From Mobula hypostoma (Eukaryota): a stretch of 64,000 bases of DNA. The notes under the pieces are model-generated. The model did no database searches. It was not told the DNA's origin and saw only the letters and a program-made list of their open reading frames with translations. Location of the stretch: assembly GCF_963921235.1 (NCBI RefSeq), contig NC_086107.1:102364001-102428000 (forward strand), read 5' to 3'. Below, in pieces: positions 41,101 to 62,926 of this stretch; the first letter of the stretch is position 1, and the number at the start of each line of letters is the position of its first letter. The position numbers and the translations under genes are program-made.

Positions 41101-42116
41101 AAACATATTGTGAAATGCATTATGTCAAATCAACTTAGAGAGGCTTGTGCTGGGAAGCCCATAAGTGTAGCCACATTTCCAGTGCCAACATAACACGCCC
41201 ATGACTCACTAATCCTAACATGCACATCTTCGAAATGTGAGGGGAAACCAACACTGTCATCAGAAGAACGTACAAACTCCTTACAGAAAACAACAGGAAT
41301 TGAACCCTGATCTTACATCTGGTGTTGTGAAGTACTGTGATAACCACTATACTGCCGTGCCACAATCTGACAATCGTTCAGGTATTGCCTGTTTACAGAA
41401 TACAGGGCAAGTCCAATTAACTGATTACCAGTCTACTCTCAAAGTGATGCAGTGCTAAAATGAGGAGGCACTCACTAAGAACTTCTCACTCGTGCCACGG
41501 TAACGTAGTGGTTAGTACAACACTATCACAGCTCAGGATGTTCCGGAGTTCAGAGATTAATTCTGGCAACATCTGTAAGGAGTCTTCCCCGGGTGCTCCC
41601 CAGGTGTGCCGGTTTCCCTTCAGAGACCAAAGACATACTGGGTAGCTACACTGATGACTGCAAATTGTCCTGCGATCAGGTTAGAGTTAATCCGGTTTAT
41701 CAGGGGTTCCTGGAGTGGTACAGCTCGAAGCGTCAGAAGGGTATAAATAAAGGCGCCCTAAGATGACTTTTTTTTAAAAACAAGAGATTTATTAACTAAA
41801 TATAACATGGACAAACATAACTGGACAAGTTTAGAGTTTTATGGAAAGTCTTAAGAAGCAGAGAAGCAGAAAGACCTAGGGAAGCATTTTCAGAGATTGC
41901 TATTCCTCTCTGATTATTCCTTGCCATTTCTTTAGCATTTAGTCTGTTTTCTTTTTACAAGTTGCTAGCTCGACACTCAACCCAGCACGGATGGAAATTG
42001 TGCAAGGAGCCAGCTGGATTCGAACCCGCGACCATTTGCCTCGAAGTCTGTCTTCTCCTATCACTTTGGATCTCCCGCTCCCCCTCCCCCCCCCACTTTC
42101 AAATCTTCTTTCAGTT

Positions 42117-42152
42117 AGTCCTGACGAAGGGTCTCGGCCCGAAACCTCGACT
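42117..42152 (+). ncRNA. Minimal hammerhead motif with a stem III substitution
   Basis: AGTC-CTGACGA-AGGGTCTCGGCCC-GAAA-CC-TC-GACT (CG->CC breaks the ACGT palindrome). Confidence 0.6.
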
Positions 42153-42205
42153 GTACCTCTTCCTGGCCTGCTGCGTTTACCAGCATTTTTTGTGTGTGTT
42201 GCCTG

Positions 42206-43030
42206 ATGCTGTGTGTTCTGAGTTGGTGAGGAAGGACAGGCAGGGGACAAAACATAAATGTAGCCAGTTAGAGGGGTTGAAATGTGTCTGTTTCAATGCT
42301 ATAAGTATTAGGAATAAAGGGGATGAACTTAAGCATGGATCAATACGTGGAACTACGATGTTGTGGCCGTTACCGAAACTTGGCTGGAGGAAGTGCAGGA
42401 GTGGCTGATGCAGGTACTGGGGTTTAGGTGTTTTAAAAGGAATAGGATGGGAGGTAGAAGGCAGGGGGGGGGTGGTGAGGAGTAGCATTACTGGTCAGGG
42501 ATAGCATCACGGCTATAGAAAGGGAGGACGCTGCAGAGGGAGTGTCCACTGAGTCGGTGTGGGTGGAAGTCAGAAATAGGAAGGGATCAATCACTGTGCT
42601 GGGAGTAGTCTATAGGCCCCCAACAGCCCTCGGGACACCGAGGAGCAGATAAGCAGGGAATGGTGCAGGAAATACAGCGTTGTAGTTATGGGTGTTTTCA
42701 ACTTCCCTCATATTAACGGGCACCTCCTGACTGCAAGGGGGATAGATGGGGCTGAGTTTGTCAGGTGTGTTCAAGAAGGATTCCTGACACAGTATGTGGA
42801 CCGGCCGACGAGAGGAGAAGCCATACTGGATCTAGTTCTGGGTAATGAACCTGGTCAGGTGGCAGACCTCTTGGTGGGGGAGCATTTTGGTGAGAGTGAC
42901 CACAACTCCCTTAGCTTCAGCACAGCTATGGAAAAGGATAAAAACAGACAAGTGAGAGTAAGAGTTTGGCACAGACTAGAAGGGCTGAGATGGCCTGTTT
43001 CCGTGCTGTAATTGTTATATGGTTATATGA
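42206..43030 (+). mobile_element. CR1 ORF2 endonuclease fragment joined directly to a CR1 3' tail
   Basis: LKCVCFNAISIRNKGDEL...FNFPHI...PTRGEAILDLVLGNEPGQV...GESDHNSL, then GTGAGAGTAAGAGTTTGGCACAGACTAGAAGGG...GTTATATGGTTATATG from ~42952. Confidence 0.8.
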
Positions 43031-43764
43031 TGCAACTACACCACTGGCCAGCATTTCCAGAGATCACGCTCACACAATTGAAGATACGCCCATCAATGTG
43101 CAAGGAGTCAGAATCAAAGGAAAACAGAGATTTTGGAGGCTTGTTGGAAGTAACAGAAATGGGGAGGGGTAAAGCTAGAAGGACTTGAGAATGAGGAAGA
43201 ACATTTATGAGACGTGACGGATTTCCAGACTAGGAGCCAAAAACAGGAGTATAGGACGTGGGACCTGGTACATTTTAGGGGCACCACAAGTTCCCTATGA
43301 TCTATTGAACATTTCTATTGTTTTCAAAAAAAGGGCTAGCTGGAGGAACTCAGCAGGTCCACACCCAAAATGTCCATTGTCCGTGTGAGGCCAAGCTAAA
43401 AGAACACCACCTCATATTCCACTTTGGTCGTCTAAAGTCCAAGATATAAACAATGAATTTGCTAATTTTAGGCCACCTACATCACCCAAGCTTCTTTCTC
43501 ACTCTTTTCAATCCATCCAGGTTTACTAATCCATTTTTCCCGAAACCATACACCCCAGCTCCCTGTTAGCTAGTTTTGTGCCCTCTCACACCTTCCTCCA
43601 CCTGCTTATCATCGACACTACTAACCAAATGATTCCAACTATCGCCTGCCAGCCTTTGCTTCAATTAGGCCTCCTCCTCACCTTCTATCATAAGCCATCC
43701 CTTTACATGTCGTTCTGATGCAGGATCTCAAACAGAAATTTTAGCCATCCTTCTGCTTCCATGG

Positions 43765-43976
43765 CTGGCTGGTGGCGTAGTGGCATCAGCGCCGGACTTC
43801 GGAGTGAAGGCTCCCAAGTTCGAATCGAGCCGGCTCCCTTGCACGCTTTCCATCCGTGCTGGGTTGAGCGTCGAGCTAGCAACTCTGCCTCGTAAAAATA
43901 AGAAAGCCTGCTAAAAAAACGCCGTCATGACAGTGTCCCGATGACTCCACTCAGAGTTCTTCTTCTTCTTCTTCTT
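43765..43976 (+). mobile_element. tRNA-derived SINE with (TTC)n tail
   Basis: A-box TGGCGTAGTGG (43773-83), B-box GTTCGAATC (43818-26), TSD CTTCCATGG; inserted into a Penelope remnant (~43340-44080). Relatives at ~41920-43055 (-), ~53130-53327 (-) and ~63271-63460 (+). Confidence 0.8.
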
Positions 43977-44163
43977 CTTCCATGGATGCTGCCTGACTCA
44001 CTGAATTTCTCCAACAATTTTTAAAAAAAATTTTTTTTCCTGTCCACTCAAGGTTTCAGCACCTGCAATCTCTTGTGTGTCCAACATGTCGACTAAGGTC
44101 CACTTAACTAATGGTCAGGGGAATTTTAAAAAAATTAATCACAAAAAAAAAATCAATACTCAC

Positions 44164-44243
44164 CCGAATGAAGAGATTTGCAGGGGCTGCCACAGAGCCA
44201 GTCTCTATTAAATATGTTTCCCAGTCAAAATTTTTCTCATAAC
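44164..44243 (-). CDS. L3MBTL2: L3MBTL2 coding exon (arm of MBT repeat 4)
   Basis: ttctag/gtgag, 80 nt, phase 1->0. (G)YEKNFDWETYLIETGSVAAPANLFIR, MBT 'FDWxxYL...AAP' motif. Confidence 0.92.
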
Positions 44244-45619
44244 CTAGAAACATAAAATGCAAAATGTTACCAGCAGCATCAAACATGGTTCAAATCAGAC
44301 ATGTGTACAAGGAGTGCATTAATAGATGTCATCACAAGAAGACACCTAGTAAATGACACCCATCCACCAATAAACCAAAAATTTTCCAAAGTTCCATTGA
44401 AAAAGCCAATGGGAGTGGAAGTAGGAATAGGAGTGACCATCAGCCATTTAACTCTAGTCTATATTCAATAAAATTACAACAATGTAAAATTTAAATTCTA
44501 ATTCACCTTACTTTCATATCCTTCAATATACCATGGGTGGTAAAACTCTATCACTTTCAATTGATTGGGCTACTGCTTAGTTTTTCATGTTATTATGACA
44601 TTTGTGAAATGTTTCTTAATTTTGAGTAACTTCCACAACCCTAACAATAAAAGTAAAATTTGTAACAACTTCTTTGAGATTCCTAAAATGCTGACTCGCC
44701 CTTTCATCCCTGCATATCAGGGATTACAAGACTAGCTTATGCAATTGCCACTCATGGTCAACCTCTGGAGCTACAGTAGCATTTTGATGATTCTGCACTG
44801 CAGTCCTTCCAAAATCAACATATTCCATCTAAGATGTAGTGCTCTGAACTCAATACGGTACTCCAGATGTGATCAAAATAGAACATTCCACAGATTAACA
44901 AAATATTCTTCCTTTACAAGCTAGCAGAGAAAACTAACAAAACATTCTAGTACAAGTTTTCATTATTACTTTTACCTGATCAAGTGATCTGTTAATAGGA
45001 GCCCTCAGTCCTTTGGTTTTGTGTCCCAACACTTGTTCATGAAGAAGAAAATCATTCTCAGGTACCTCTTTTGAGGTTTGAAATAGGTCCTCTTGCAGAC
45101 ATTTGTGATTAAACTCACCTACTGCAATTACATTCATTCTACCGGAATATTAACATAATTCTATGGTCCCATCCATACCACTTGGTCTCCCACCAATCAT
45201 TTTCAAATTTTGATATTGATTTGTTATCTAAGTTATTCATGAATATGGCGAATAACTACGAATCCAGCACTTACTCCTGTTGGGCACCAATATCATTTTT
45301 TCTATTTGAAGCAAACTACATGGAACCTTATTACATACCTTCTGAAAATCTACCTCGGTAACACACACAAAGTATTTCTCCTGCTTACTAATTTAGTTAC
45401 TGCCTCAAAAGATTTAATTAGTAGTCAACTACAGGACTTTACAAAATTGTGTAGGTTCCCCAAACTGGTAAAAGTCTAACTGTGCCTTTAAAATTTGCTA
45501 CTACTCCCTTCTACTCTCCTTCTTTTGCCATTTTGTTAAATAATAGCAACACTTGCTTTTTTAAGTTTAAAAGGATAATTCTCAAACTAAGTTCATTTTG
45601 GAAAATCATGGCTTAATTA

Positions 45620-46400
45620 CAGTGGATTTCAGTTCATTGGGAACCATTCCTGATGTGGACCGGTACATTTTGGTCCAATTAAGCAGCTACCCTAATTAGC
45701 CAAAGTTTCATGGAAATAGTTAGAAAAGGTATAAAAAGAAAAACTGAGTAACGAATTATGTATTTAAATGAAATACAGAACAAATTAGAACATACCAATA
45801 TTACCACAGCACTATAAAACTGTACTAGTTCCTAAGTGTTATAAGAAGCATTCATCCTGTGTACACAATGAACAAAATCAGCAGACACCTAGTGCAGATA
45901 ATAGAGTGCCTTCATACCATGCTATCAACAAATGCATCCACCAGATCTTCAATTTCAGTGCAACATTCAAGAGGATTTATCGATACCTTCAAATTCTTTG
46001 TAATCCCTAATTCGTTGAAGTAGTGAAATCATTTCATTTTCACTCCTGTCCTTTTCTGGCATTTCCAAGCCTGAATGCTTGAAACTCTAGTGAGCAAAGC
46101 AGCTCTGATTGTCTTACTGCTTATTTGTCATCAACAAGCACTGCTTTTTGAGCATAAACACACGCAACTGATGCTATTTAAAAACGGTTTGCTCTTGGCA
46201 CAGTATCGTGTCTAATGTCCACATAAGCAGGCACAACTGACGCTATTTAGAACCTGTTCAGCAAGTCTCCTGCCCCAATTAAACGGCATAGTGTCCCAAA
46301 TAAACAAAGGGAATCCCGGCTATTTTCCCAATTTATTTTTGTTCTTTAAGAGTTGTCCCAAATAAATGGCTTCCTCATTAACAGATGGCCCAAATAACCT
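45620..46400. mobile_element. Tigger/pogo-like non-autonomous DNA transposon remnant
   Basis: TA|CAGTGGATTTCAGTTCATTGGG left end; repeated CCCAA(T/A)TAA subterminal motifs at the right end, which appears truncated. Confidence 0.55.
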
Positions 46401-46929
46401 GTTATGAGGCAGCACAAAGTTAGAATGTTGGGGCTTCCAGAGTCATTCAAACACTCGAGTAAAATCTACACAGACATTCTAGTACAGTGCACAAGAATGT
46501 AGAACAAGAAATATGTGGGCAAGGTTCACCCAACTGAAGTGCCTAAGGCGAATCAAGAATAAACACGGTAGAATAGTGGTGCAGCCAGTAGAGTGGCTGC
46601 TTTGCATTTCCAGAAATCCCGACTCTGGTGCTGTTTTTGTGGAGATTGCATGTCCTTTCCATGACTGTTTCCAGTCTCCTTCCACATCTCAAAGGGTTTG
46701 CAGGTTAATTGTCTGCTGTAAACTGGCACTGGTGTGCTATTGTCCCCGAGTTCACGGGAAAGTGGGGAGAGTAGGATTAGTTTAAATGGGTTCTCGATGG
46801 ACTTCAAGGGGGTTAGGGTAATTATGGTTGAAGACATATTTCTGTATTCCATTTAATCATACTGTTTATTATACTGAATGCTTAATTTGGTAAGTTTAAA
46901 AACAAGCTTACAATCAAGTCCAATTGTTA

Positions 46930-47091
<162 letters not shown>

Positions 47092-49945
47092 CTATCATTC
47101 AATGGGACATGAAACAATCCATCACATCTGTTGCACTGGTCTAGAGGCAGATAACATAGCACAGCTCGCACTATTTGTTCTCTATTTAAATATCAAATCT
47201 TAGTAAAATTGAAGCCCAGGAACTTAAAAAGACTTTGAGTGCATTGGAAACCACTGTTTTTTAAAAAATAATACTTTTATAAGATTTGTATTATTAACAA
47301 GCTTGTGTATTTTTCACACTCACTGGCAGAAAGCAGTATAGCAGCTAAACCAACGGTTTAATTACCTTTCTTATTTTTTATTGGCTAAGTATTAGCACAT
47401 TACCCAAGTGATGTAATTAGTTTAAATATGTAGCCTATTAACCAATTTATCTCTAAGGAATTTTCTTTATCTTGTCTATTAAAGTAACAGATTTTTTAAG
47501 AAGTACCATCTTTATTTTCTTTAGTCCTTTGTCTTAGCATTAATTCCCCTCTTAGCTTTGTTTTTCAATTCTTTATTTATTTTGCTTAGTATTTATATAC
47601 TTACTGAAATTTTGGAATTAAGACTGCTGGTCATTTTGGACTCCTAGAAGAATCCCAAGGATTGGAAAATAAACAGATCTAATGGGGGGGGGGGAGGGTG
47701 TGTGTGTATGCACGTGCGTGCAGTGAGGAGATGTAAAATTTACAGGGAGACGAAAAGCAAAGAATGCTGGTAAATGCATTTAAAAGTCTGAAGGGTAGTG
47801 TGCAGTTGTGTCCCGATGAACTGACATCTCTTTTTTACTACATATGTGGTGCACAGGGTAAAAAATTCAAAGCTTACAGATAATATGAAAATCAAAATTG
47901 CAGCATTGAATATAAACCATAGCAACAGACTTCAGGGAGACAAAGAATAGCTTAAAAAAAATAAAATACAGGTGAATAAAAATTAATGCTGTTAGGTATA
48001 AAATGAAACAAAAGAATGAGAAGGCAAATATAAACCTAAATACTACAGGCTGAAATGGATGTGCAAGAACAGAAAGACCAGGTTATTTATCCACAAATCT
48101 TAAAAGTGACACGTCAAGTCAAGAAGGCTGTTGGTTTATAGGGTTATATTGTACAGAAGCAAGAGTGATTTGCCCTGGCTGAATTCTAGCACTTCAGGAA
48201 GTATGCCAGTACCTTTTTGCAGTAAAATAGCACAGATCAGGAAACAAATTTCAATCCCACTCCTGCTGTTGGAGAATTTAACAAGTATATCTAAAAGAGC
48301 TAACTATTATCACTAATTATTACCACAAATCTGCCCAATTGTTGTAAAAACCTGTTGCGTTCACTAATGCTCTGCAGGGAAAGGAAATCTGGCAACGTAA
48401 CCCAGCCTGGCTGATATGCAACTCCAAAGCCTTCACCACATCCCGCCTCCCCACCAACCTGGAAGTTCTGGTAAGGCAAGGGTTAGCATATCATCCAGGA
48501 GAAATTGCAGATATACTGTAGACAAGACAGGTTGTCGAAGAGCACAAGTTCCCTTCTTACAGCAGGTTACTAGAGCCATCTATTGAAGGATGCAAGGGGC
48601 ACACGTCCCAGCTAACAGTCAATTACTTTACTAACTTCAAAGTATCATTGTTTGTTAGCTGGTAGTTGCTATTGATTTCGGACACCTCTGTTGTGAATGC
48701 TGATTGATTCTTGCAAAATAAGGAATTCAAACATACAGAGTTTACCAAACGGTCAACATCCGTAACTGCTACTCAATTCTGTATAAAAATGTCAATTCTC
48801 TGTTCAGACTTCAGAGCGGTGTGGTGACGGGACCATGCTGTTTTCCTTTTGCACAAGTAAATAAAGTGCGTTTGAGGGATGAGAGAGCTTTCAGAGTCTA
48901 GTTAATCAGCGACGACACCCAGACTGCTGACTGAACTGCCTCGTTTGTTTGGCAGTGGGCAATTAATGCCAGCCTTGCCAGCAACACCCACATGGGTGAA
49001 CAAATAAATGGAGAGAGGGAAAAGGCAAGATTTATGAGAATGACACCAAGAATATGAGGCTTCATTTACATTGACAGCTCAAAAGTTGAGTTCTCAGAGC
49101 AGATTTTAACAGGACAAGATAAATGAAAAGCAGTACACAGCAGTTTCAGCACAACCAAGGATCACCAAGGGAAAATATTCAGGGCTCAGGAAAAGATGAC
49201 CATGGGGATTATTAAGTAGCTCTTTCAAAGAGCTGGTACACACACAGTGGGCTGAACAGCCTCCTTTTGTACTTTCCAATTTAAAAAGATAGAAGCTCTA
49301 TCTTTGGTTCCTTTCACTTTGTTTCATCACCACTAACAATCTCTGTAGCCACAATCTGAGCCTTCACAATTTCATTCTGGTTGAAACCAAATTTCTAACC
49401 CCTAACCTTCTTCCCTCACCATAGAACAGCTAATGCTCCCTCCACAGTGCCACAATTGTGCCCTGTGCTAGCAAGATGAGCCTATAGAGTCATAAGGCTA
49501 AAAACGAGGTTGTAGACCTAATGATGTTAGAGGCACAAAGAGAGAATGCAATATGAGAATCCACATTTTGTCTGACTGTGGGCCAGCTTAGACGAGTGAA
49601 CAATGATGTAATGATTGGCCACAAAAAAAAACAATAGAATAGTTGAGCCTGTAGCTCAACCCCCTGAATCAGCTGGTCCGATTCTGATCTCTCGCTCGCT
49701 CCCAATTTCTGTTGTCATACCACTAGTGATTATGCCTTCAGTGATTCATCTTTAAATTTTGGTATTCCTTGCCCAGCAGTGTGTCAGACAGAACACCTTT
49801 ACTCTGAATTGCCAGAGAGAGCCCTATATAACATACTAGAGACAATTCTAAACAGTGTTTTATCATCACGTCCACCCACGAACAACTAAAAACTAAATAC
49901 CCTTACTCTTAATAATTTTAAATTCTCACAAAGATCAACAAAGGG

Positions 49946-50757
49946 AACCTCTACCAGTCTTACACAATGGCACCTAATGGCAACTTCTTTACTTGCATCT
50001 TTGGAAACAGCTCTATTTCCATCTTTAATATCTCTATTTTCCCCTTTCAGGGTTCTTTTGAAGACCCTGACCTGGAGTTACACACTGACCACGGTTCTTT
50101 GTGGGAATGGGACCTGCTCTCAGGGTTTCACGACTGGCCGTTATTCGATATGCCGAGGATGCGGCCTAAGAGCTTCGCTTGCCTTCGGGGGTCCGGGATC
50201 TCATGGCTCTGGAGATGGGCAGACCAAAGGTTGGTGCCTCTGCAGGAATCCGGTGTGTCGTGGGAGACGGAAGATCAAAAGCAGCGAGCTGGCTGCTGGC
50301 TTTATGCCCAGAGACCCGAGTTCTTTGGGCACAGAGCTTGGAAAAAGCGATGCAACGGACTTTTAACATTGTAAATCAGCGAGTTGTTTGTTATGTCTCC
50401 CCTCTCCCTGTAAAACAGAGACACCTTTCTCCCCTTGTTAGGGAGAGAGAGAGAGCCTGTGGTATGTCGAACACCGGGTGAATGAGTAGTCTTTAGGATA
50501 CTGCAAGTTTGTGTCTTTGCTAATGCTTTGCTGTACGCTTGAGTGCCCAGTGGGGGCGCCAATGCTTTTTTATTTTGCAGATGGGGAGGGGGATTGTTGC
50601 CTGGGAGGAGAGAGCTGGGGGGGCGGCTTTGGGGTTCTAACATTTAACTGTCATTCATTCTTTGGGACACTCTTCTGTTTTTGTGGATGGTTGCGAAGAA
50701 AAAGCATTTCAGGATGTATATTGTATACATTTCTCTGACATTGAATGTACCTTTGAA
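49946..50757 (+). mobile_element. Non-coding ~810-bp retroposon with a Rex1-like 3' tail
   Basis: TSD AACAAAGGG (49937-45, 50758-66); ends ...ATTGAATGTACCTTTGA; related copies at ~39540-40338 and, more distantly, ~16900-17635. Confidence 0.7.
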
Positions 50758-50864
50758 AACAAAGGGCACGAAAATGAAATTCAAGTACAGCCTGCTTAAA
50801 GATTCTACAGCGCTGGATTAAAAAGTTCAGGATCAGTTCTGAGTTTCCATACAGATGAATAGCA

Positions 50865-51505
50865 AGCAACACACATCAAAGTTCTGGTGAACGCAGCAGG
50901 CCAGGCAGCATCTCTAGGAAGAGGTACAGTCGACGTTTCAGGCCGAGACCCTTCGTCAGGACTAACTGAAGGAAGCGTTAGTAAGAGATTTGAAAGTGGG
51001 AGGGGGAGGGGGAGATCCAAAATGATAGGAGAAGACAGGAGGGGGAGGGATGGAGCCAAGAGCTGGACAGGTGATATGAGAGGATCATGGGATAGGAGGT
51101 CCGGGGAGAAAGACCGGGGGGGGGGGGGGAACCCAGAGAATGGGCAAGGGGTATAGTCAGAGGGACAGAGGGAGAAAAAAGGAGAGTGAGAGAAAGAATG
51201 TGTGTATAAAAATAAATAATGGATGGGGTACAAGGGGGAGGTGGGGCATTAGCGAAAGTTAGAGAAGTCGATGTTCATGCCATCAGATTGGAGGCTACCC
51301 AGACGGAATATAAGGTGTTGTTCCTCCAACCTGAGTGTGGCTTCATCTTTACAGTAGAGGAGGCTATGCATAGACATGTCAGAATGGGAATGGGATGTGG
51401 AATTAAAATGTGTGGCCACTGGGAGATCCTGCTTTCTCTGGCGGACAGAGCGTAGGTGTTCAGCAAAGTGGTCTCCCAGCCTGCGTCGGGTCTCGCCAAT
51501 ATATA
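50865..51505 (-). mobile_element. Penelope-like element 3' fragment (GIY-YIG endonuclease C-part plus pseudo-LTR with hammerhead motif)
   Basis: IYIGETRRRLGDHFAEHLRSVRQRKQDLPVATHFNSTSHSHSDMS...LEEQHLIFRLGSLQSDGMNIDFSNFR* (51249-51512), followed by a pyrimidine-rich UTR and the ribozyme motif. Confidence 0.88.
50928..50963 (-). ncRNA. Minimal type-I hammerhead ribozyme motif (Penelope-associated), core intact
   Basis: Minus strand AGTC-CTGACGA-AGGGTCTCGGCCT-GAAA-CG-TC-GACT: stem I AGTC/GACT, CUGANGA core, short stem II, GAAA, palindromic ACGT stem III, GUC cleavage triplet. Confidence 0.75.
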
Positions 51506-51860
51506 TTTCCAATGTGCTTCAGACCATTCAGCCTAGCTTTCGATCAAGGCCGATTTATTTTCCCTCTCAATCCTATTCTCACGCCTTCTCCCCATTGCCT
51601 TCAACAGCTTTATTAATCAATAATCTATCAAACTCCACTTTAAATATTACCAATGACTTGGCCTCCACGGCCATTTTAGGTCTATCTTTAACATGAGGAA
51701 GTGTGCAGATGCTGGAAATTTAAAGCAACACTTACACAAAAATGCTCATCTTTAATTTGCTTTCATTAGCAGCTTACAATAAACCAGTTCTATCCTAACT
51801 GCAACCTATCAGCCACTTACTCCAAGGAAGTAATGCCCAACTGCAAGACTGACAGGGAAG

Positions 51861-52696
51861 TGTGACGAAAAACCAAGTTATCAGAAGATTGATGCTAATG
51901 AGGGAGATAAGTGAGACAATGGAGAAACATTCAAAATGCTAATAAGAGAGAAGAGAGAGATTAACGAGAAAGAAACACATTTCAGAATATTGACAGACCG
52001 ATTGCTTTGAACCTGAACTGTTTGAAGTTTGATGGACAGGCGATACTCCAGCAGGGGGATAAAAAGAACAGGTTTGCTAAGGCACGACACACACCATGAG
52101 ATCACGAGTTAACGAGACCCTGGAAGAGCGGTGTACCCCCACAAGTTGGTGGGAGTTGGAGGTCTGGTTCGAGGGAACCGACCATAGACTGACAGGGTGA
52201 AAAGGAACGATCAGCGGGAACCTGGTGTGTGTGTCTGCCCTTGCCTGGGTGCCGGGTTCACCGCGGAAGAACGGTCGTTATCCGGAACGGAGAGGTCACA
52301 ATCGGTGACCACAGAAGACATAAAAGGGTTCGCCGGAAAGCTAACTGCGAAGAACATCAAAGGTCTGTTTGAATCAAAATTTGCATTCTCTCTCTCTGTC
52401 TCTCCAACGGCACAACAGCGATCACTGCGAACTGTACTCAGCTGAACTGAACTCTGCGTCACTTAAGACTGATCGTTTTACCCCTAGACTGCGATAGAGC
52501 TTAGTTGATTCCTGTTATCCTAGTTCTGTGTACACGTGTGTATTAACATTGCTAACCTGTTGCATTTACATCCTTACGATTAGAGTACTGTGTTACTTAT
52601 TTCTTTAATACAACTTTATTAGTTTCTGTTAAACCAGACTCCAACTAAGTGGTCCATTTCTGCTGGTTTGGCAACCCAGTTATGGGGTACGTAACA
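51861..52696 (+). mobile_element. Solo LTR related to the Gmr1-like LTRs
   Basis: TGTGACG...GGGTACGTAACA; 4-bp TSD GAAG on both sides; extensive similarity to 18443-19315. Confidence 0.92.
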
Positions 52697-55689
52697 GAAG
52701 AAAGATCCCAATAAAAGGTAGAAATTCCTGACAATAATTATTGCAGAAAATGGTTATCAACTGGAAAATGGCACAGGAAGGACAAAGCTCCTGACCATTC
52801 CTTTATTAAATATTTTCTTTGTTTCCACCTCATAATTTAAAATGACAAAAGAACACAACATGCCTACACCCCAATCCAAATTTCACCTGCCCTTTCTTAT
52901 TTACGCCTCCTTCTACTCATTAGCCTTTATCATCCTCTTTCAGACAGCATCACCACCACTGGATCTCTCCTAGTCTCCATTCTATCAGAGGCCATCCTGT
53001 TTCTTCTTGGACTGTGGCCCAGAAAAATTAACTGATTCTCTCTCCACAGAGCTCTTCAAGCATTTACCATGCTGGTCAAGGTCAGCACTGATGGGTCTCC
53101 TGTCAGACTGTCTGACTGCCCCTCATGTGAAGAATTGTTGTTGTTCCTTTTAGCGCCTTGTAGCACATTGGGCAGCACTCTTTGCCGTTTCCTTAGCACT
53201 TGTCTGTTTTTACAAGGCGGAGTTGCTAGCTCGATGCTCAACTCAGCACAGATGGAAAGTGTGCAAGCAGCCAGCTGGGAACATTCGCCTCGAAGTCCAG
53301 TGCTGATGCCACTACACCACCAGCTGGCAAATCATGTGAAGAGTGACTGTATGAATTTTGCACCATAACCTCAATAGCGCTTTACAGAATTCTTCAGACA
53401 GGAGTCAAATTGGCCTTTCAAGTCCAAACTCACTCGAGTAGAGCAATCATTCCCTTGCTTTTCTCTAATAGCTGTAGACATTTATTCACTCTCAATTGCC
53501 TATCCAATTACATAATAAAGCCTCTGATTGGTTCTGTTTTAACTAACCTTAAATGGTACAGGAAGCACCGAAAGAAAGCAAGTTCTTGTTCATTCCTATA
53601 CAAGCTTGTTCCTTTGTTCCCATCCCAGGAGTTCATAACTTAAAAAAATGATAAACGATTAGAGTTCTACGCTGTGCACACCTATAGCCCAATCTGAATC
53701 CAACTTCCTTCAGTGAATTTCAGAATAACTACATTCCACATAAAAAGGTTTATCCCATTATCCTCTTTGTTACACCTTTGGCTAAAGTTTTAATTCTGTG
53801 TCCTCTCAGGCTTGAACCATGAGAATAGGAATAGTCTCCCTCCACTTAACCTTTCACGCAAGGTCTCTTTACTTCTCTATCCAGATCCCAATTTAGGAAT
53901 GCGTGTTCAAGAGGACAAAATGTTGTAACTTTCCCTCGCCTTCCCCTTTATTCCCTACTCGGATCTCTTGCCTGTTCTCGCCTGCCTCTCATCTCCCCCT
54001 GAGTCACCTCCTCCTTCTCTTTCCCCTATGGTCCACTCTCCTCTCCTACAGTCCTTCTCCAGACCTTCATCTTTCCTACCCACCTGGCTTCTATCTATCC
54101 TCATTCCCTCCACCTTTTTAATTGTCGTTTTCTCCCTTCCTTTTCCGTCCCAAGGAAGCATCTCAGGCTGAAACATTGACTGTTTAGTCATTTCCATTGA
54201 CGCTGCCTGATCTGCTGAGTTCCTCCCACATTTTGTGTGCCTCCAGATGCTTTGGATTTCCAGCATCTGCAGACTTTCTTGTGTTTAAGATATTGTGAAT
54301 TAAAAAAAAATATACTGGACGGATTGAGGTAAATATTTTAAAATATGATACAGTGACATCAGTTATACACCTTAATTTGACTGTTAATAGCGCTATCAAA
54401 ACTTTTCAAAAACAATACTGTGTGGGACAGTTGCCTGTTTTGGAGACCCAGGTTCAATCCTAATCTGTGTGGTGCATCTTCTCCCTGTGGCCATGTGGAT
54501 TTCCCCCACATCCACTGGTTTACTTTCACATCCATTTCATGAAGAGTTGGCACTGTAAATTGGCCCTACTTTGTAGGTAAGTGGTAAAATGCGGAGATCT
54601 ATGGGGTTAATAAAATAGGACTGTCAATGGGTGCTTTATGGTCAGTAGGCTGAAGAGCCTGTTTCCATGCTGTGTTGCTCCAGGACTCCAAAACAGGAGC
54701 AACACTTGGTGTCAGCACAAACACAGGAGGAACACAGCAGGTCAGGCAGTATCTTTGGAGAGAAATGAACAGACTGTGTTTTGGATGGAGACCTTCTACA
54801 AAGAACATTCAGTCCAGCTGAAGAGTCTCAATCCAAAACACTGACTGTTCATTTCTCTCCGTAGGTACTGCCCAACCTGCTGAGTCTCGTCTTGTGCCTC
54901 CAAAGACTTGGAACCATCGATTTCATGCTGAAACTCCCTCCAACAGATTGAAAAGATTAACTTTATTTGTTACACGTACATCGAAAAATTGAAACATACA
55001 GTAAAATGCATCATTTGCGTCAATGACCAATGCAGTCTGAATGTTTGCTGGGGGTGCTGGCAAGTGTTGCCAAGCTTCCAGCACCAACGTATGCCCACAA
55101 CTCGGAGTGCCTGGACAAAACCAACATGGTCACAGGGAGAAGGTACAAACTCCTCAGAGGCAATGGCACGGATTGAACTCTGGTCACTGGCACTGTAATA
55201 GTGTTCAGCTAACCGCTATGCTATCGTTCCACTCCACGAACCTGTGAACAGCCGAATCCCTTAAGTGCTTAATCGTACAAAGAATGACTCAGCCAAGTAA
55301 TATTTATTTATTGTGAGATACCCAGCAGCCACCTATTTAACACTAGCCTAATCACACGATATTGTACATTGGCCCATTTACTTGCCTCCATCCTTTCCAT
55401 TGTGGAAGTCAATGAACTAAAGGTTAACTCTGTCTTACAGGACACACTCAAATACCACATTGAACAACATATATAAGCCATGACGACAAGCGCAAATGAC
55501 TTTAAGATTTCTTCCAGATTTCTTTTCCATCAGTTGCAGATTGCCTTTCACTGAGCACCCACATCATAAGGAAGCAAGGGTCCAAAACGGAAATACTACC
55601 AATACATTTCTGAAATCAACTGAATGATGGTACTCTGATCTTCCTCTGACTAGGGAGTGTTCCTTTGAATAGCTAACCAAATAAACATA

Positions 55690-56180
55690 CCCTCAGTGGC
55701 CATTTTATTAGGTACACCTGCGTGTTAATGCAAATATTTAATCAGACAGATATGTGGCAGCAGCTCAATGCATGAAAGCTTGCAGACATGTCAAGAGGTT
55801 CCACTGTTATTTAGATTAATCATCAAGAAATGCAATCTAAGTGACTTTGAGTATTGAGTGACTGACTACTGGTGCACCCGGGTCAGCCTGAGCAGCTCAG
55901 AAAATGGTGCAAAAGCAAAAAACATCCAGTGAGCAGCAGTTCTGTAGGTGAAAGGCCTTATTAATGACAGAGGTCAGAGGAGGATGGCCCAACTGGTTCA
56001 AATTGACAGGAAGGCAGTAGTAACTCAAATAACCAAGCATTACAACAGTGGTGTGCAGAAGAGCATCCCTGAATGCACAACATGTCGAAGTGGATGGCCT
56101 ACAGCAGCAGAAAACCACAAACATGCACTCAGTGGCCACTTTATTAGGTACAGGAGGTATCTAATAAAATGGCCACAGTG
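55690..56180. mobile_element. Tc1-derived non-autonomous element; a related fragment lies at ~57230-57500
   Basis: TA|CCCTCAGTGGCCATTTTATTAGGTAC...CTAATAAAATGGCCACAGTG|TA inverted ends. Confidence 0.7.
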
Positions 56181-56199
56181 TACATAACAACAGATTTTA

Positions 56200-56430
<231 letters not shown>

Positions 56431-56629
56431 CTAACCCTTCCAATGTGGGGAAACATACTGTTAAGTGGTCCATTACATGTGTTTACTTATTGATTTCTCT
56501 CAAAGATGATGACTGAACTGTCTGCTGTCAATTTCTTATACTAAGGTATCAAACGTATAGATGGATCAAAGTAGTTTAAGTGCCAGCAAGGTTCAGGGCC
56601 CACACTCTAGTTGTCAATAGTCCTTGCAA

Positions 56630-56890
56630 ACGGCAGCACAGTAACACGACACTTTACAGTATCAGCGGCCCAGGTTCAACTCTCGCAGCTGCCTGCAAGG
56701 AGTTTGAATGTTTTCCCCATGACCTTGTGGGTTTCCTCTGGGTGCTCTGGCTTCCTCCCACAGTCCAAAAACCTACTGGTCGGTAGATCAATTGGTCATT
56801 GTAAATTGTTCCGTGATTAGGCAAGGGTTAATTGGGGATTGCTGGGCAGCTCTGCTCGAAGGCTCGGAAGGGCTTACTTCACGTTCAATG
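56630..56890 (+). mobile_element. V-SINE/HE1-like SINE (representative copy)
   Basis: tRNA-like head, CAGTCCAAA, and TTGGTCATTGTAAATTG V-domain-like core. Other copies at ~6520-6800, 10700-10950 (-), 33100-33400 (-), 41150-41360 (-), 41492-41750, 46565-46830 and 54420-54680. Confidence 0.7.
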
Positions 56891-58833
56891 TATATACACG
56901 GAAGGAGGGAGGGATAGATACTGTTGAATTGTTCACAAGAGTAGCAGGTACACTTAAGAACAGCATGACTGGATTCTAACTCAGTTTGTTTGATGTGGGA
57001 GGACGACTCCCCAGACTTTTCCCTAATATTCCACAATTTTCACAAACAAAGGGAATACCTACAATGAGTGAAACATAATTATTTCCCCTCACAAAGCAAC
57101 CACAATAGCTAATTAGGTATATCCACCAAAAGGGAAATGTTATTTATTTATAAATGTTTCTTGTTAACCAACTAATCTAATTGCGCCAATTTTAGAACTC
57201 CAGTCATGAGCTTTTACTTTAACATAGACTGTGCCCACTTTGAGGTACACCTGTATACCTGCTCGTTAATGCAAATATGTAATTAGCCAATCATGTGGCA
57301 GCAACTCAAGGCATAAAAGCATGTAGAATGGTCAAGAGATCAGTTGTTCTTTAGACCAAACATCAGAATGGGAAAGAGATGTCATCTCAGTGACTTTGAC
57401 CATGGGCTTTGGTGCCAGGCGGGGTGGTTTGAAATTGCTGATCTCCTGGGATTTTCACACATAACAGTCTACAAAGTTTACAGAGAATGGTATGAGAAAG
57501 AGAGTGGGTTTCCTCCAGGTGCTCCGGTTTCCTCCTATAGTCCAAAGATGTGCCAGTTGGCAACTTTGGGGGATCTATGGACATGGACCCACAGGTTCAG
57601 TCTGTTCCTCTGCACTGTTAGGAATCCTGTCATTAACCCTTCATGTTTGACCTTGCAAAGTGAATCACTTCGCACTGATCTCTATCTGCCACTCCACGGC
57701 CCAGCTGTGCATCCTACCAATGTCCCGCTGTAACCTATGACCGTCTTCTGTGCTATCCACAACACTAATCCTCGCGACATCTGCAAACCTGCTTCAGCTA
57801 CTGTAAGTCATACATAAAAATTACAAAGAGCAGGGGGTCACAGAACAGATCCCCGCAGAACACCACTAGTCATGGACCTCCAGGCAAAATGCACTCCGTC
57901 TACTGCCACCCTCTGCCTTCTATGTCAAGCCAATTCAGAGTTCATGCCTTCTGACTTTCTGAATGAGCCTATCATGGGGAACCTTGTTGAATACCTTACT
58001 AAGTTCCATATTAACCACATCCATCACTCTACCTTCACCAATTTGATTAGTCTTTTCCTCGAAGTCAAATCAGGCTCAAGAGGGATGACCTGCCCCTCAC
58101 AAGGTCAGGCTAATCATCTTTAATCAAACTCTGCTTCTCTAACGTTTGTAAATCTTGTCTCTGAGGATCCTCTCCAATAGTTTGCCCACCACTGATGTAA
58201 GCCTCAATGGTCAATAAATCCAAGGATTATCTGTAGTATCTTTCTTGAAGAAAGGAATAACATTTGCCATCCCCCCCCCCCCCGACAAGCCTTTTGGTAC
58301 TACTTGTGTGGCCAGTGAGGATACAAAGAACAAAGAGACAGCAATCTTTTCCCTCTTTCTGTAGTAACATGGGTATAACCCCTCCAGTCCTAGGGATGCA
58401 TCTATCCTAATGTCTTTCTAAGGTTCCAGCACATCCTCTTTCTTAACCTTGGCATGTTCCAGCATATTAACCTGTTCTACACTGACTTCATCTTTGTCAA
58501 GATTCCTCTCACTGGGAAATGCTAAAGCAAAGTATTCATTAAGAGCATCCTCCAATGAGTACTTCACTTACTGCAATTACCTTTGACAAAGTACCTCCAC
58601 CAGTTTGAAAATAATAATACATTGACTATTCCCAGTTAGTCTGTATCACATTACATCTTCCAGGAACACCAATAGATATTCCATTCACAAAAACAGAATG
58701 GTTTTGCCAGATTACCTTGAATTTTTCAAAATGTTCTGCTAATTGCACTAATCCCACCTTCCAGCACTTGGCTCATAACCTCCTATGCTGAGGTGATTTA
58801 AGTGATCTTCTAGACGCAACCTCTGGTCACATA

Positions 58834-60385
58834 CAGTGCCTATAAAAAGTATTCAACCCCCACCCCCCCAGAAGGTTTCACATTTTGTTTTACAACGTTG
58901 AATCACAGTGGATTTAATTTGGCTTTTTTGACACTGATCAACAGAAAAGACTCTTTCATGTCAAAGTGAAAACAAATTGGTCTAAATTTATTACAATTAT
59001 TAAATATAATTGATTTCATAATTATTCACCCTGTCAAGTCAGTATTTATTAGATGCACCTTTGGCGGCAGTTACAGCCTTGAGTCTGTGTGGAAAGGTCT
59101 CTATCAGCTTTGCACATCGGGACACTGTAATTTTTCCCTATTCTTCTTTACAAAACTGCTCAAGCTCTGTCAGATTGCATGGAGATTGTGAATTAACAGC
59201 CCTTTTCAAGTCCAGCCACAAATTCTCAATTGGGTTGAGGTCTGGACTCTGATATGGCCACTCCAAACATTATCTTTGGTGTTTTTAAGCCATTCCAGTG
59301 TAGCTTTGGCTTTGTGCTTGGGCTCATTGTCTTGCTGGAAAACAAATCTTCTTCCAAGTCACAGTTGTCTTACAGACTGCATCGGGTTTTCCTCCAGGAT
59401 TTCCCTGTATTGTGCTGCATTCATTTTTCCCTCTACCTTACAAGCCTTCCAGTGTCTGCTGCAGTGAAGTAACCCCACAGCATGATGCAGCCACCACCAT
59501 GCTTTACAGTAGGTATGGTCTGTTTTTGATGATGTGCGGGGTTTGGCTTACATCAAACATAGCATTTAGTCTGATGGCCAAGAAGCTCAATTTTGGTTTC
59601 GTCAGACCATAGAACCTTCTTCCAGCTGACTCCAGAATCTCCCACATGCCTTCTGGCAAACTCCAGCTGAGATTTCATGCAAGTGTTTGAATGAATGATT
59701 TAATTTCAAGATCCCGGGCAACAGTTGTATACGCAGTCTCCCCCATATCAGTCACTGAAGCTTGCAACTCCTCCTGAGTTGTCACAGGTCTCTTGTTGGC
59801 CTCCCTCACTAGCCCCTGCTTGCACGGTCACTCAGTTTTTGAGGATAGCCTGCTCTAGGCGTATTTACAGCTATGCCATATTCTTTCAATTTCTTGATGA
59901 CTGACTTAACTGTATTCCAAAGGATATTCAGTGACTTTTCTTGTATCCATCTCCTGACTTGTGCTTTTTGTTAAATTTTTCATGGAGTTACTTGGGGTGT
60001 ACCTTTGTCTTCATGGTGTAGTTTATGCCAGGATACTGACTCACCAGCAGCTGGACCTTCCAGACATAGGTGTATTTTACTATAATCAATTGAAATTAAC
60101 ACCTTGACTGCACGCAGGTCTCTAAAAAAAAAATAATAAATCTCTATTTAACTAATTGTGTGACTTCTGAAACCAACTGGCTGCACCAGTGATGATTTAG
60201 TGTCACATTAAATGGGGCGAACACAATCAAATATTTTGTGTTTTATATTTGTAATTAATTTAGATCATTTTGGAGAAAATTAAATTAGGGTTAGGGTTGA
60301 ATCCATTATGATTCAATATGGTAAAACAATAATGCGTGAAAACTTCCAAGGGGGAGGGGGTGGTGAATACTTTTATTAGGCATTG
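58834..60385 (-). mobile_element. Tc1-family DNA transposon with long IR/DR-type TIRs and degenerate transposase
   Basis: TA|CAGTGCCTATAAAAAGTATTCA...TGAATACTTTTATTAGGCATTG|TA; ~200-bp inverted ends; decayed transposase on minus strand from MKTK (~60014) to KY* (~59039). Confidence 0.88.
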
Positions 60386-62926
60386 TAGTCCATCGAAACT
60401 AATAAGATCTAAGACCCAGGCCTCAACACCTCCTTGTGCAACTGGATCCTCAATTTCCTCACTTGCAGACCCCAGTCAGTTCAGATTGGCAACATCTCCT
60501 CCACAACCCCCATCAGCACAGGTGCACCTCAAGGCAGAATGCTTAGCCCCCTGCTCTACTCACATTATACTTATGACTGTGTGGCTCCGTACAGCTCAAT
60601 GGCATATTCAGGGTTCCAGACATCACCACTGTTGTTGGCTGAATCAAAGGTGGTGATGAATTGGCACAAAGGAGATTGAAAATGGGGGACCATGAGCCAG
60701 CCCTCATTAGGAGAGGAGAGGTGGAATTCCTTGGCATTATCATTTCAGAGGATCTGCCAACGTAAGTGCCATTACAAAAAAGGTACGATAGCAGCTCTAC
60801 TTACTTAGAAATTTGCACAGGTTCGACAATCTTCTATAAATGCACAATATAGACTATACTGACTGGTTTCATCACCCCCAGTATGGAAACACCAGTACCC
60901 ATGAACTGAAAAGCCTACAAAAAGTAGTTTTGTGTTTACATAGTTTGTCTTTCTTTGCACATTAGTTGTTTGTCAGTCTTTGTGTGCAGTTTTTCCACTG
61001 ATTCTATTGTATTACTTTGCTCTACTGTGAATGGACTGCAGAAAATGAATCTTAGGGTAGTATATGACATATATGTACTTTGTTAATTAACTTACTTTGA
61101 ACTCTAATCATACGGGACTAACTTATATGGGCTTCTTGATCAGCATAGCCCTACGTGAAATGATAATGCCTAGGAATTTAAAGGTACTGACCCTCTCCAC
61201 CTCTCTTCCCCTAATGAGGGCTGCCTCATGATCCTCCACTTTCTTCCTCCTATAATTAATAATCAGCTTTACAGACCATTAACTGTAAAGATAGTGCTGG
61301 AACTAAAGAGTAAGACTCTCAGATTTCATTTCTAATTTGTTACAAGTTAGTTGGTTATTAGGCATCAGAATCAGATTTAATATCACCAGCATGAGTCATG
61401 AAATTTGTTAATTTTGAGGCAGTAGTTCGATACAATACATGATAAATATAGAAAGAATTGAATATATATAATATTTTATATATATATATACACATATATT
61501 TTAAAAAGTGTGTGTATGTATATGTATATTAAATTGTTAAATTAAATAAGTAGTACAAAAATAAAAATAAAAAAGGTATAGATGTAGTGTTCATATAAAT
61601 CGGATGGCAGCAGGGAAGAAGCTGTTCCCAACTTGCTGAGTGTGTGCCTTCAGGCCTCTGTACCTCCTTCCTGATGGCAACAATGAGAAGAGGGCAGGTC
61701 CTGGGTGAGTGGGGTCCTTAATGATGGACCCCTCCTTGAAGATGTCTTGGATACTATGGAGGCTAGCATCCATGATGGAGCTGACTAATTTTATACTCCT
61801 GTGCAGCAGCACACCACCCCCACCCCACCATACCAGACAGTGATGTAGCCAGTCAGAATGCTCTTCACGGTATATGTGTAGAAGTTTGAGTGCAGAAGTT
61901 TCCAACCTCTTATCAAGTGCCTAATGGTGCAGCAGACAGCTCCAGCCACACATGTTCAATCCTGACCTCTTGTAGTTCAAACATTCTTCATGTACCTGCT
62001 TTGGTTTTTCCCAAATGCTCCATTTTCCTCCAAAATGGCAAAGGGAAGCTAATAGGTTAACTGGCTATGATAAACAAGAAAATGAATCTCAGGGAAGCAT
62101 ATAATGGCATATACATATTTTAATAATAAATTTACTCTGAACTGCCACTGGTAGAAGTGGATGACAGGAGAACTGGGGAAATTTGTAAGTATGTGAAAAA
62201 TATAGGTTATTGGGAAATACCGGAAGCATGAGAACATTCTGTGTTGAGAATGGATTTGAGGGCCATGAAATAAAATGAGATTCCCAATAAATGAGAGTCA
62301 GAATTGTTTGCACACTTGGAGAAATGACTGATAATTGATCACTCCTCAGCATTCAAGCAAAGGCACCTCCGCAGAGGATCGAAAGAGACTACATCGGGTT
62401 GTACATTCAGCCATATGATTTCTGAGTGGTCCATGAACTATTCCTTCTTTACACTAATTTATTATAACTTTTTAAAAAAAAATCTTGATGCTGCAAAATA
62501 ACAAATTTCACGGCATACACTCAGTGGAGGATATCTCCTCCTGTACCTAATATTCTTTCTAACATACACATCAACTTTACCCTGATTCATTCACCACTAG
62601 TAATTCACAACAGCTAATTAACCTAACAACCAGCACATCCTTGGGACTTGTGAGGAAATAAGAGCACTTGGGAGAAACATGGGCACAGGGGAATGTGCAA
62701 ACTCCACAGACATCAAGCCTGGGACTCTGGAGTTAAGGCAGAAACACTACCAACTGTATCACTGTACCATATATATAGGCAGTAAGACAGTTTCTCTTCT
62801 TTGTGCTTCCAACTACTTTTGCCGTAGCGACAAAACTGTTGACTTGCTCCACTGCTAACAATGCATTCCTTTTCTGATGCAGACACTCCCAGAGAATGAA
62901 ATAAAATGTACAGTATTTTTCCTTAC

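What the first reader, a model, noticed from the sequence alone, without database searches (positions are those of the whole stretch)
50928..50963. Minimal hammerhead ribozyme motifs dispersed through the introns of a chromatin gene
Seen: the Penelope 3' region contains AGTC-CTGACGA-[A]GGGTCTCGGCCT-GAAA-CG-TC-GACT, a complete minimal type-I hammerhead, on the same strand as L3MBTL2 pre-mRNA. Other copies lie at 23695 (+) and 42117 (+), with decayed ones at ~38924 (-; GAAA->AAAA), ~28980, ~43712, ~54160 and ~54813. Established: Penelope-like elements carry minimal hammerheads with palindromic stem III that cleave as dimers. Inference: an intact sense-strand copy could cut the intron when paired with another copy, and selection might favour decay of sense copies.
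Basis: partly seen in the sequence, partly recalled or inferred. Interest (0 to 1): 0.7.

Follow-up and report, generated by a model that had tools for sequence, protein, structure and literature searches.

The report
Penelope hammerhead relics in ray intron
The 36-base motif is real and has the layout of the tiny dimer-type hammerhead ribozyme that Penelope-like jumping genes are known to carry at their ends; here it sits in the stump of such an element inside a ray's L3MBTL2 intron, where it is likely an inert passenger, because no working partner copy lies in the mapped gene and the intron is spliced correctly.

Summary
The motif is at 50928-50963 on the minus strand, sense to L3MBTL2. It is the only copy in the window with both catalytic boxes, stems I and II and a palindromic stem III; chance gives 0.01 per window. 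It lies in a 640-bp, 5'-truncated Penelope-like element, about 290 nt behind a GIY-YIG fragment 90% identical to a Mobula protein. Copies decay at CpG sites (39% vs 17%), with no sparing of the core and no strand effect. About 98,000 contigs of one DNA run show the same pattern, catalytic G8 and G12 included. No competent sense partner exists in the mapped gene, the motif is predicted misfolded in context, and RNA-type contigs splice the 9.1-kb intron correctly. Verdict: a new member of the known Penelope minimal hammerheads; intron cutting and selection against sense copies are unsupported. The scan found this family before on other DNA. One open lead: copy ends cluster at the motif's 5' edge, an acceptor-like AG.

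The parts
50928..50963 (-). Focal minimal type I hammerhead motif: stem I 50963-50960 with 50931-50928; CUGACGA 50959-50953; stem II 50951-50940; GAAA 50939-50936; palindrome 50936-50933; predicted cut between 50932 and 50931
50864..51506 (-). 5'-truncated Penelope-like element (endonuclease fragment, pyrimidine-rich spacer, hammerhead, 3' end without the optional tail); no target-site duplication of 7 bp or more found
51249..51506 (-). C-terminal part of a GIY-YIG endonuclease reading frame, ending in a stop; 90% identical to Mobula protein P0001, 44% to the 664-aa RT plus GIY-YIG protein P0025
50962..50985 (-). Acceptor-like stretch (branch-point-like heptamer, pyrimidines, two AG dinucleotides at 50967 and 50963); the second AG is the first two bases of stem I; use as a splice site not shown
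   Evidence: 14-16 of 20 pyrimidines; the gene's likely own acceptors 12-16
42048..42203 (+). Young antisense copy; hammerhead 42117-42152 with intact boxes but G16.2>C (palindrome lost) and a short deletion downstream
23605..23832 (.). Fold-back insertion; + arm carries the motif at 23695-23730 with intact boxes but broken stem I and II pairs; tail present on the + arm
34253..34466 (.). Fold-back insertion 34266-34453 joined inside the hammerhead, tail on one arm only, flanked by a 13-bp target-site duplication (34253-34265, 34454-34466)
38862..38965 (-). Sense copy of a second subfamily; G12>A, G16.2>A, stem I mismatch
28907..29008 (-). Sense copy beginning at the hammerhead's 5' edge; G5>A, G12>A, decayed
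43706..44019 (+). Old antisense copy, probably one copy split by a later insertion (43706-43743 and 43978-44019); A9>C, decayed
54060..54292 (+). Antisense copy with tail, same intron as the focal copy; U4 and G5 changed
54716..54886 (.). Fold-back insertion with two dead hammerheads head to head; its minus arm is the only other sense copy in the focal intron
10471..10637 (.). Fold-back insertion in the last intron, joined at the hammerhead; both motifs dead or partial
10037..63010 (-). Host gene L3MBTL2, 3' half: coding exons near 62906-63010, 56218-56328, 46942-47091, 44164-44244, 37422-37661, 26281-26340, 14728-14835, 10037-10141; the focal copy lies in the 9,129-nt intron between the 56218 and 46942 exons

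Best explanation
The motif is a minimal type I hammerhead sequence in the 3' end of a 5'-truncated Penelope-like retrotransposon that sits in an L3MBTL2 intron of a ray, and at this locus it is likely an inert passenger. Shown: its layout, its place about 290 nt behind a GIY-YIG endonuclease fragment, the many dispersed copies and fold-backs, CpG-type decay that does not spare the catalytic bases, and correct splicing of the intron in RNA-type contigs. Inferred from published work: in full or tandem elements two such motifs pair through the 4-nt palindrome and cut the element's own RNA after GUC, weakly and probably with help from the element's protein; this would explain why subfamilies with different flanks keep the same 36-nt block. 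Inferred here: after insertion the copies are under no constraint and decay by methyl-CpG deamination, and the focal copy is intact because it is young, not because it is kept.
For: Element identity: fragment 90% identical to P0001, which has RT-thumb sequence, a Cx4CxxC linker and a GIY-YIG hit (E 5e-4, below the gathering cut-off); P0025 has RVT_1 and GIY-YIG hits. Fold-backs, a tail on one arm and a 13-bp duplication match the described insertion anatomy (PMC8557442 and PMC3846280 passages). Abundance: 97,779 and 52,424 contigs laid on 211 bases in two DNA runs. Neutral decay: 45 of 115 CpG cells vs 49 of 288 other cells differ in 12 window copies (p=7e-6; copies not independent, the two reference copies included); non-CpG core 15 of 98 vs non-core 34 of 190 (p=0.62). 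In run X1, 10 of the 11 listed variant sites inside the motif are at CpG positions, including G8>A 7.9% and G12>A 5.9% beside 10-13% for non-catalytic CpG guanines (40 of 55 rows shown). Lineage-level retention: contigs stop matching the focal copy at the motif's borders (50926: 584 contigs; 50961-50963: 278, 317, 889 in X1; 24 of 874 rows shown), and window subfamilies share the block but not the flanks. Inertness: no other sense copy with intact boxes; stems I and II at probability <=0.07 in 4 of 4 context windows; double-hammerhead fold -9.5 vs -28.3 kcal/mol for the best dimer fold; antisense copies would pair with it at -265 and -153 kcal/mol vs about -56 to -64 for random windows. One contig in each of X17 and X19 joins 56219 to 47089 across the intron with canonical ends. 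Published: single motifs inactive, dimers weak (PMC4209133); the anole motif cuts only with its protein (PMC11167929).
Against: No cleavage assay was run. Folding energies ignore tertiary contacts, protein help and co-transcriptional folding, and the motif also fails to form in shuffled flanks (median P<=0.01), so low predicted stability is a trait of the class and not of this locus. The family is so abundant that a partner could come in trans from other transcripts. G8>A (7.9%) is somewhat lower than at other CpG guanines, and G12>A is lower still, though G12 is in a CpG only when 11.1 is C. Contig depth is not copy frequency, and the 80% cut-off favours young copies. It is not shown that the individuals behind X17 and X19 carry this insertion, these runs are only guessed to be RNA, and a cut late in a long intron might leave splicing intact. 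The 5' half of the gene lies outside the window and may hold an intact sense partner. Window copies show no covariation above shuffles (146 of 500 reach the observed pairing).
Confidence: 0.85

Rival explanations
1. The intact sense copy cuts the L3MBTL2 intron by dimerising with another family RNA in trans, or with help from the element's protein, and so lowers or reshapes the gene's output.
For: All conserved bases, both stems and the palindrome are present. Isolated, stems I and II form with probability 0.83 and 0.95. Family sequence is plentiful in two RNA-type runs (6,484 and 4,932 contigs) and is less CpG-decayed there (G8>A 2.0-2.7% vs 7.3-7.9%), so intact partners probably exist in the cell. 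Protein-assisted cleavage is shown for the anole element (PMC11167929).
Against: No competent partner in cis within the window. The dimer is held by 4-bp helices and is 19 kcal/mol above the best dimer fold. The intron is spliced correctly in contigs of X17 and X19. No pile-up of contig ends at 50931/50932 among the rows shown, though contigs cannot show RNA ends. The anole study found no RNA-seq reads ending at the cut site (PMC11167929).
Confidence: 0.07
2. Selection removes or degrades sense-strand intronic copies with intact cores, so that decay is orientation-specific.
For: Solo copies in the gene are 3 sense vs 5 antisense; G12>A is in 3 of 5 sense vs 2 of 7 antisense copies. Tandem retrozymes are reported as depleted from Xenopus introns (10.64898/2026.07.22.740005, passage; orientation not examined there).
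Against: None of the differences is significant (p 0.56-1). The only fully intact copy is sense. G12>A is the expected product of the C11.1-G12 CpG and occurs on both strands. Family sequence in RNA-type runs is more intact than in DNA runs.
Confidence: 0.08
3. The sense copy affects the host, if at all, as a cryptic 3' splice site at the start of stem I or as one arm of a long double strand with antisense copies (editing, back-splicing of the two exons between 42203 and 50864), not as a ribozyme.
For: Pyrimidine-rich AGs at 50967 and 50963 score like the gene's own acceptors. In Drosophila virilis Penelope an intron ends at the 5' end of helix I (PMC4209133). The focal and 42048-42203 copies are inverted, 95% complementary over 60 nt, and flank two exons. 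RNA-type runs show more sense-strand A>G in the family (e.g. 51023: 6-13% vs 0.3-0.5%).
Against: No contig joint from exon 56219 into 50961-50965 and no back-splice among the 15 of 790 joints shown. The branch-point-like bases vary in the family (50978, 50979). The A>G excess is family-wide, unstranded and lacks matched DNA.
Confidence: 0.12
4. The copies are an independent small mobile element (non-LTR retrozyme) that propagates through circular RNA.
For: Many copies are 100-200 bp and carry only the hammerhead end. Retrozymes are proposed to derive from pseudo-LTRs (10.64898/2026.07.22.740005).
Against: Retrozymes are defined by head-to-tail tandem units each with a hammerhead. No such unit appears among the 23 hits; paired copies are head to head. 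The focal copy is continuous with endonuclease coding sequence.
Confidence: 0.05

Closest known systems
Minimal type I hammerheads (min-HHR) in pseudo-LTRs of metazoan Penelope-like elements: Xena, Poseidon, Neptune of fishes, coelacanth, Xenopus (Cervera and De la Pena 2014, PMC4209133)
   Same: CUGANGA and GAAA boxes, extra base between 9 and 10.1, 4-bp helix I, palindromic 15.1-16.1 without a helix III, position in the 3' pseudo-LTR, mass dispersal as single motifs from truncated copies, pairs on opposite strands.
   Different: Host is a ray; no shark, skate or chimaera term was found in the two supplement files searched (one file not searchable). Helix II is 4 bp (the paper gives 7-8 bp for Schistosoma). 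The focal copy has G-U instead of G-C at 10.1-11.1.
Inverted-pLTR plus tail insertions of endonuclease-bearing Penelope-like elements (PMC8557442, PMC3846280); Neptune/Nematis-type linker
   Same: 5' truncation, adjacent inverted copy, 30-40-bp tail on one arm, target-site duplication (13 bp at 34253/34454); a close relative P0001 has a Cx4CxxC linker before the endonuclease.
   Different: Units here are very short (about 170-230 bp), and joints cluster at the hammerhead's 5' edge. No full-length element is in the window, and no RT tree was built.
Poseidon element of Anolis (PAc), Frangieh et al. 2024, PMC11167929
   Same: Hammerhead near the element's 3' end; two alternative 3' ends (with and without tail).
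   Different: There cleavage was tested and needs the protein; here untested. There the motif overlaps the ORF start; no long reading frame follows the motif in the focal copy.
Ultraconserved intronic hammerheads of amniotes (RECK and others; PMC6155905 passage)
   Same: Type I hammerhead, sense within an intron of a protein-coding gene.
   Different: Those are single-locus and conserved across classes. This one is a young copy of a very abundant repeat, minimal in form, with no evidence of locus conservation.

Membership tests
Penelope minimal hammerhead (min-HHR) | CUGANGA and GAAA boxes with U16.1-H17 | tested here: met
   (focal copy; also 42117 and 23695)
Penelope minimal hammerhead (min-HHR) | Helix I and helix II can pair; extra base between 9 and 10.1 | tested here: met
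   4+4 pairs; 72.7% of cells pair in register vs 19-41% when slid; no covariation above shuffles in 12 copies
Penelope minimal hammerhead (min-HHR) | Palindromic 15.1-16.1, no monomeric helix III | tested here: met
   only the focal copy among descriptor hits
Penelope minimal hammerhead (min-HHR) | Conserved G10.1-C11.1 pair | tested here: inconclusive
   Focal copy G-U; C11.1 in 6 of 12 window copies and 27-38% of depth in four runs. U11.1 is a common family state, probably from CpG decay.
Penelope minimal hammerhead (min-HHR) | Self-cleavage as dimer or with protein | not testable with these tools
   No assay; energy models only
EN+ Penelope-like element | C-terminal GIY-YIG endonuclease followed by pseudo-LTR with hammerhead | tested here: met
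   Fragment itself has no Pfam hit, but its 77-90% relatives hit GIY-YIG at E 5e-4 to 1e-3, below gathering
EN+ Penelope-like element | Telomerase-like RT in the same ORF | tested here: inconclusive
   Absent from this truncated copy; relatives P0001 and P0025 carry RT sequence
EN+ Penelope-like element | Inverted truncated copy, optional tail, target-site duplication | tested here: met
   4 fold-backs; a 13-bp duplication abutting both ends for 1 of 10 units searched
Neptune clade | Cx2-5CxxC linker between RT and endonuclease; RT phylogeny | tested here: inconclusive
   Linker seen in relatives P0001 and P0025 but shared with Nematis (PMC8557442); region missing from the window copy; no tree built
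Non-LTR retrozyme | Head-to-tail tandem units each with a hammerhead | tested here: not met
   (window only)
Domesticated intronic hammerhead | Locus conserved across distant species | tested here: inconclusive
   Repeats swamped the lay; presence of this insertion in organism B not resolved

The most novel reading that the evidence does not exclude
In this ray family the element's RNA is processed at the AG that opens helix I, a 3' splice site as in Drosophila Penelope. That step, not the ribozyme cut 32 nt further on, would set the 5' end of the short copies and the joint of the fold-backs, and young sense copies in introns would act as ready-made splice acceptors for host transcripts, with the hammerhead as the first exon sequence.
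Probability: 0.15. Interest if true: 0.5.

Novelty: new member of a known kind. Interest (0 to 1): 0.15.

Why it matters
As it stands it matters little: it extends a described class of retrotransposon-borne ribozyme motifs to rays, where the family is very abundant. What these motifs do in the element's life cycle is still open (PMC8557442, PMC11167929). A family with this many young copies is good material for two tests: whether intact sense copies are depleted from introns, and whether copy ends map to the cut site or to the motif's 5' edge. The data here favour the 5' edge. If intact sense copies did cut host introns, a large repeat family would be a genome-wide load on splicing; the evidence here does not point that way.

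Tried and rejected
Own-genome tally by orientation: no genome held. Rfam gathering scan: 0 hits; its models do not cover this minimal form, so this is no evidence against. Plain pattern count CTGANGAN{5,35}GAAA: 14 vs 7.5 expected, 3 of 100 shuffles as high, weak on its own. First descriptor script had a fault that over-extended stem II and dropped 42117; corrected. MBTD1 as host: solved-structure hits were split between MBTD1 and L3MBTL2; rejected because ray L3MBTL2 matches the four MBT exons at 85-100% and also the C-terminal exons, while amphibian MBTD1 matches 62-79%. Pfam on the endonuclease fragment alone: no hit. No RNA holder listed on record and no raw reads offered, so RNA ends at the cut site could not be examined. 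Presence or absence of the focal insertion in organism B: unresolved, repeats swamped the tables. Target-site duplications: none of 7 bp or more for 7 of 10 units; the 7-8-bp matches at 10465 and 54716 do not abut both ends and were not accepted. Covariation in 12 window copies: not above shuffles. The 2016 RNA Biology paper on dimer cleavage (PMC5785218) is not held; only its title and the review's summary were seen. Earlier notes near this place: none.

Full report
Observation. The 36-nt motif lies at 50928-50963 on the minus strand. Read 5' to 3' it has a 4-nt stem I arm, CUGACGA, one extra A, a 4-bp stem II closed by a CUCG loop, GAAA, the palindrome ACGU at positions 15.1-16.1, C17 and the complementary stem I arm; the predicted cut lies between 50932 and 50931. 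A structural descriptor finds 2 hits in the window (this one and 42117-42152), only this one with the palindrome, against 0.03 and 0.01 per simulated window in 200 simulations (an earlier version had a fault and missed 42117). Rfam gives no hit at gathering thresholds.

Host gene. MBT-repeat exons lie on the minus strand. Solved-structure searches did not separate MBTD1 from L3MBTL2, but one exon is 99% identical to a Mobula L3MBTL2 (P0038), and that protein maps eight exons from 63010 down to 10037. The focal copy is sense, in the 9,129-nt intron between the exons at 56218 and 46942. One contig in each of two RNA-type runs (X17, organism A; X19, organism B) joins 56219 to 47089 and 46942 to 44241 with canonical intron ends. 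Whether those individuals carry the insertion is not shown, and the RNA label is a guess by the tool.

The element. The motif sits about 290 nt behind the stop of an 85-codon frame (51506-51252) that begins at the YIG motif. The fragment has no Pfam hit alone. It is 90% identical to P0001 and 44% to the 664-aa P0025; both hit GIY-YIG below the gathering cut-off, and P0025 also RVT_1. Both have a Cx4CxxC-type linker, which PMC8557442 gives for Neptune and Nematis elements; I built no tree, so the clade is a lead only. A profile from seven copies finds 23 hits, 19 at E<=0.01, against one at E 0.17 in the reversed window (the seven seeds match by construction). Seventeen of the 19 lie in the gene. 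Counting 43706 and 43978 as one interrupted copy gives 16 arms: eight form four head-to-head fold-backs joined in or just before the hammerhead, and eight are solo, 3 sense and 5 antisense (p=0.73). The fold-back at 34266-34453 has the optional tail on one arm and a 13-bp target-site duplication. This is the insertion anatomy described for these elements (PMC8557442, PMC3846280).

State of the copies. Of 12 aligned copies, three keep both boxes (50928, 42117, 23695), two also keep both stems, and one also keeps the palindrome. The three other sense copies that retain the 5' box region are dead (38926 G12>A; 28977 G5>A and G12>A; 54797 many changes). The focal copy has G-U at 10.1-11.1, where PMC4209133 reports a conserved G-C.

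Why copies decay. The motif has five CpG sites. In the window, 45 of 115 CpG cells differ from the young form against 49 of 288 others (p=7e-6, copies not independent), and outside CpGs the core is hit as often as the stems (15 of 98 vs 34 of 190, p=0.62). No strand effect is seen (1 of 4 vs 2 of 6 with intact boxes; G12>A 3 of 5 vs 2 of 7), with little power. Public runs extend this: 97,779 contigs of X1 and 52,424 of X5 lay on 211 bases. Of 11 variant sites listed inside the motif, 10 are at CpG positions; G8>A reaches 7.9% and 7.3% of depth, G12>A 5.9% and 6.2%, other CpG guanines 10-13%. Only 40 of 55 variant rows were shown, depth is not copy number, and old copies are under-sampled. The 36-nt block is nonetheless shared by subfamilies whose flanks differ, and contigs stop matching at its borders (50926 and 50961-50963). 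So the motif appears kept in the active lineages and neglected after insertion. Pairing is register-specific (72.7% vs 19-41% slid), but covariation does not exceed shuffles.

Could it cut here? In the double-hammerhead model each core joins one copy's boxes with the other's cleavage site, so the focal site needs a partner with intact boxes; none exists on the sense strand in the window. The isolated motif forms stems I and II (P 0.83, 0.95), but its best fold pairs G5-G8 with 15.2-17 and locks the core (-10.0 vs -6.0 kcal/mol). The double-hammerhead arrangement scores -9.5 against -28.3 for the best dimer. With native flanks both stems fall to P<=0.07 in 4 of 4 windows; shuffled flanks do the same, so this is a trait of the motif. 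Antisense copies offer far stronger pairing: -265 kcal/mol with 42048-42205 and -153 with 54060-54245 in the same intron, against -56 to -64 for random windows. Published assays agree in direction: single motifs inactive and dimers weak (PMC4209133); the anole motif cuts only with its protein, cutting is not needed for insertion in vitro, and no reads end at the site (PMC11167929). Against this reading, family RNA appears abundant and more intact than the DNA average (G8>A 2.0-2.7% in X17 and X19), so trans partners and protein help cannot be excluded. The 5' half of the gene was not seen.

An open lead. Among the 12 of 440 junction rows shown, seven join the focal motif's reverse strand (50939-50966, five at 50962-50966) to the start of a forward motif, at depths of 105-164 where single-copy contigs have 12-17. 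These are multi-locus fold-backs joined at the motif's 5' edge. Loose ends also cluster at 50961-50963 and not at the cut site among the 24 of 874 rows shown, though a second subfamily's different flank contributes to that. The AG that opens stem I follows a pyrimidine tract (14 of 20 here, 19 of 20 at 38959; the gene's likely acceptors 12-16), and in Drosophila virilis Penelope an intron ends at the 5' end of helix I (PMC4209133). No splice into this site was seen among the 15 of 790 joints shown. An earlier scan note made the same remark.

Literature seen. PMC4209133: parts 1-2 of 4 and a term search of two supplement files (one further file not searchable); PMC11167929: parts 1-2 of 4; 10.64898/2026.07.22.740005: part 1 of 5 and passages; PMC8557442, PMC3846280, PMC6765202, PMC6155905: passages; PMC5785218: title only. 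Searches gave no paper describing this family in rays; Repbase and subscription journals were not searched, so it may be catalogued. The double-hammerhead geometry, the catalytic roles of G8 and G12, methyl-CpG deamination and splice-site consensus are recalled knowledge.

Verdict. Real, correctly recognised in kind, and ordinary: a young stump of a Penelope-like element with its known minimal hammerhead. Intron cutting and selection against sense copies are not supported. The scan has recorded this family many times. Interest 0.15.

Noticed in passing
window 50961-50966 and junctions to 42114-42118: Fold-back joints and loose ends of family copies cluster at the hammerhead's 5' edge, which coincides with a pyrimidine-tract AG, and not at the predicted cut site.
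   Followed up: partly
window 50915, 50925, 50989, 51023, 51026: RNA-type runs show more T>C on the + strand (A>G in element sense) than DNA runs, e.g. 51023: 6.4% and 12.5% vs 0.5% and 0.3%; compatible with A-to-I editing of family double strands, but family-wide and without matched DNA.
   Followed up: partly
window 42048-42203 (+) and 50864-51040 (-): Two young inverted copies flank the exons at 44164 and 46942; predicted to pair over about 143 bp, the arrangement that favours back-splicing.
   Followed up: partly
window 18436-23361: Gypsy-type LTR retrotransposon in an intron, on the + strand, with 96-98% identical LTRs and RT plus RNase H domains; a related solo LTR lies at about 52170-52710.
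   Followed up: no
window 30645-32719: Second pair of 97% identical direct repeats 1.8 kb apart around a short RT-like frame (31242-31868): probably an internally deleted LTR element.
   Followed up: no
window 26755-26883: Two weak profile hits on opposite strands (E 0.86 and 0.018) look like a fifth, much older fold-back.
   Followed up: no
window 14677-14714 (+): A tail stub of the family lies about 15 nt from the end of the exon at 14728-14835, antisense.
   Followed up: no
window 51683-51727 (-): A lone 3' tail of the family lies 180 nt upstream of the focal element, same strand.
   Followed up: no
proteins P0003, P0005, P0012: Several annotated ray proteins named as host genes contain this endonuclease fragment, either by exonisation or by mis-annotation.
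   Followed up: no
window 62906-62930: The exon at 62906-63010 and the next exon share similar boundary codons (tblastn runs a few residues into the intron); exact boundary not set.
   Followed up: no
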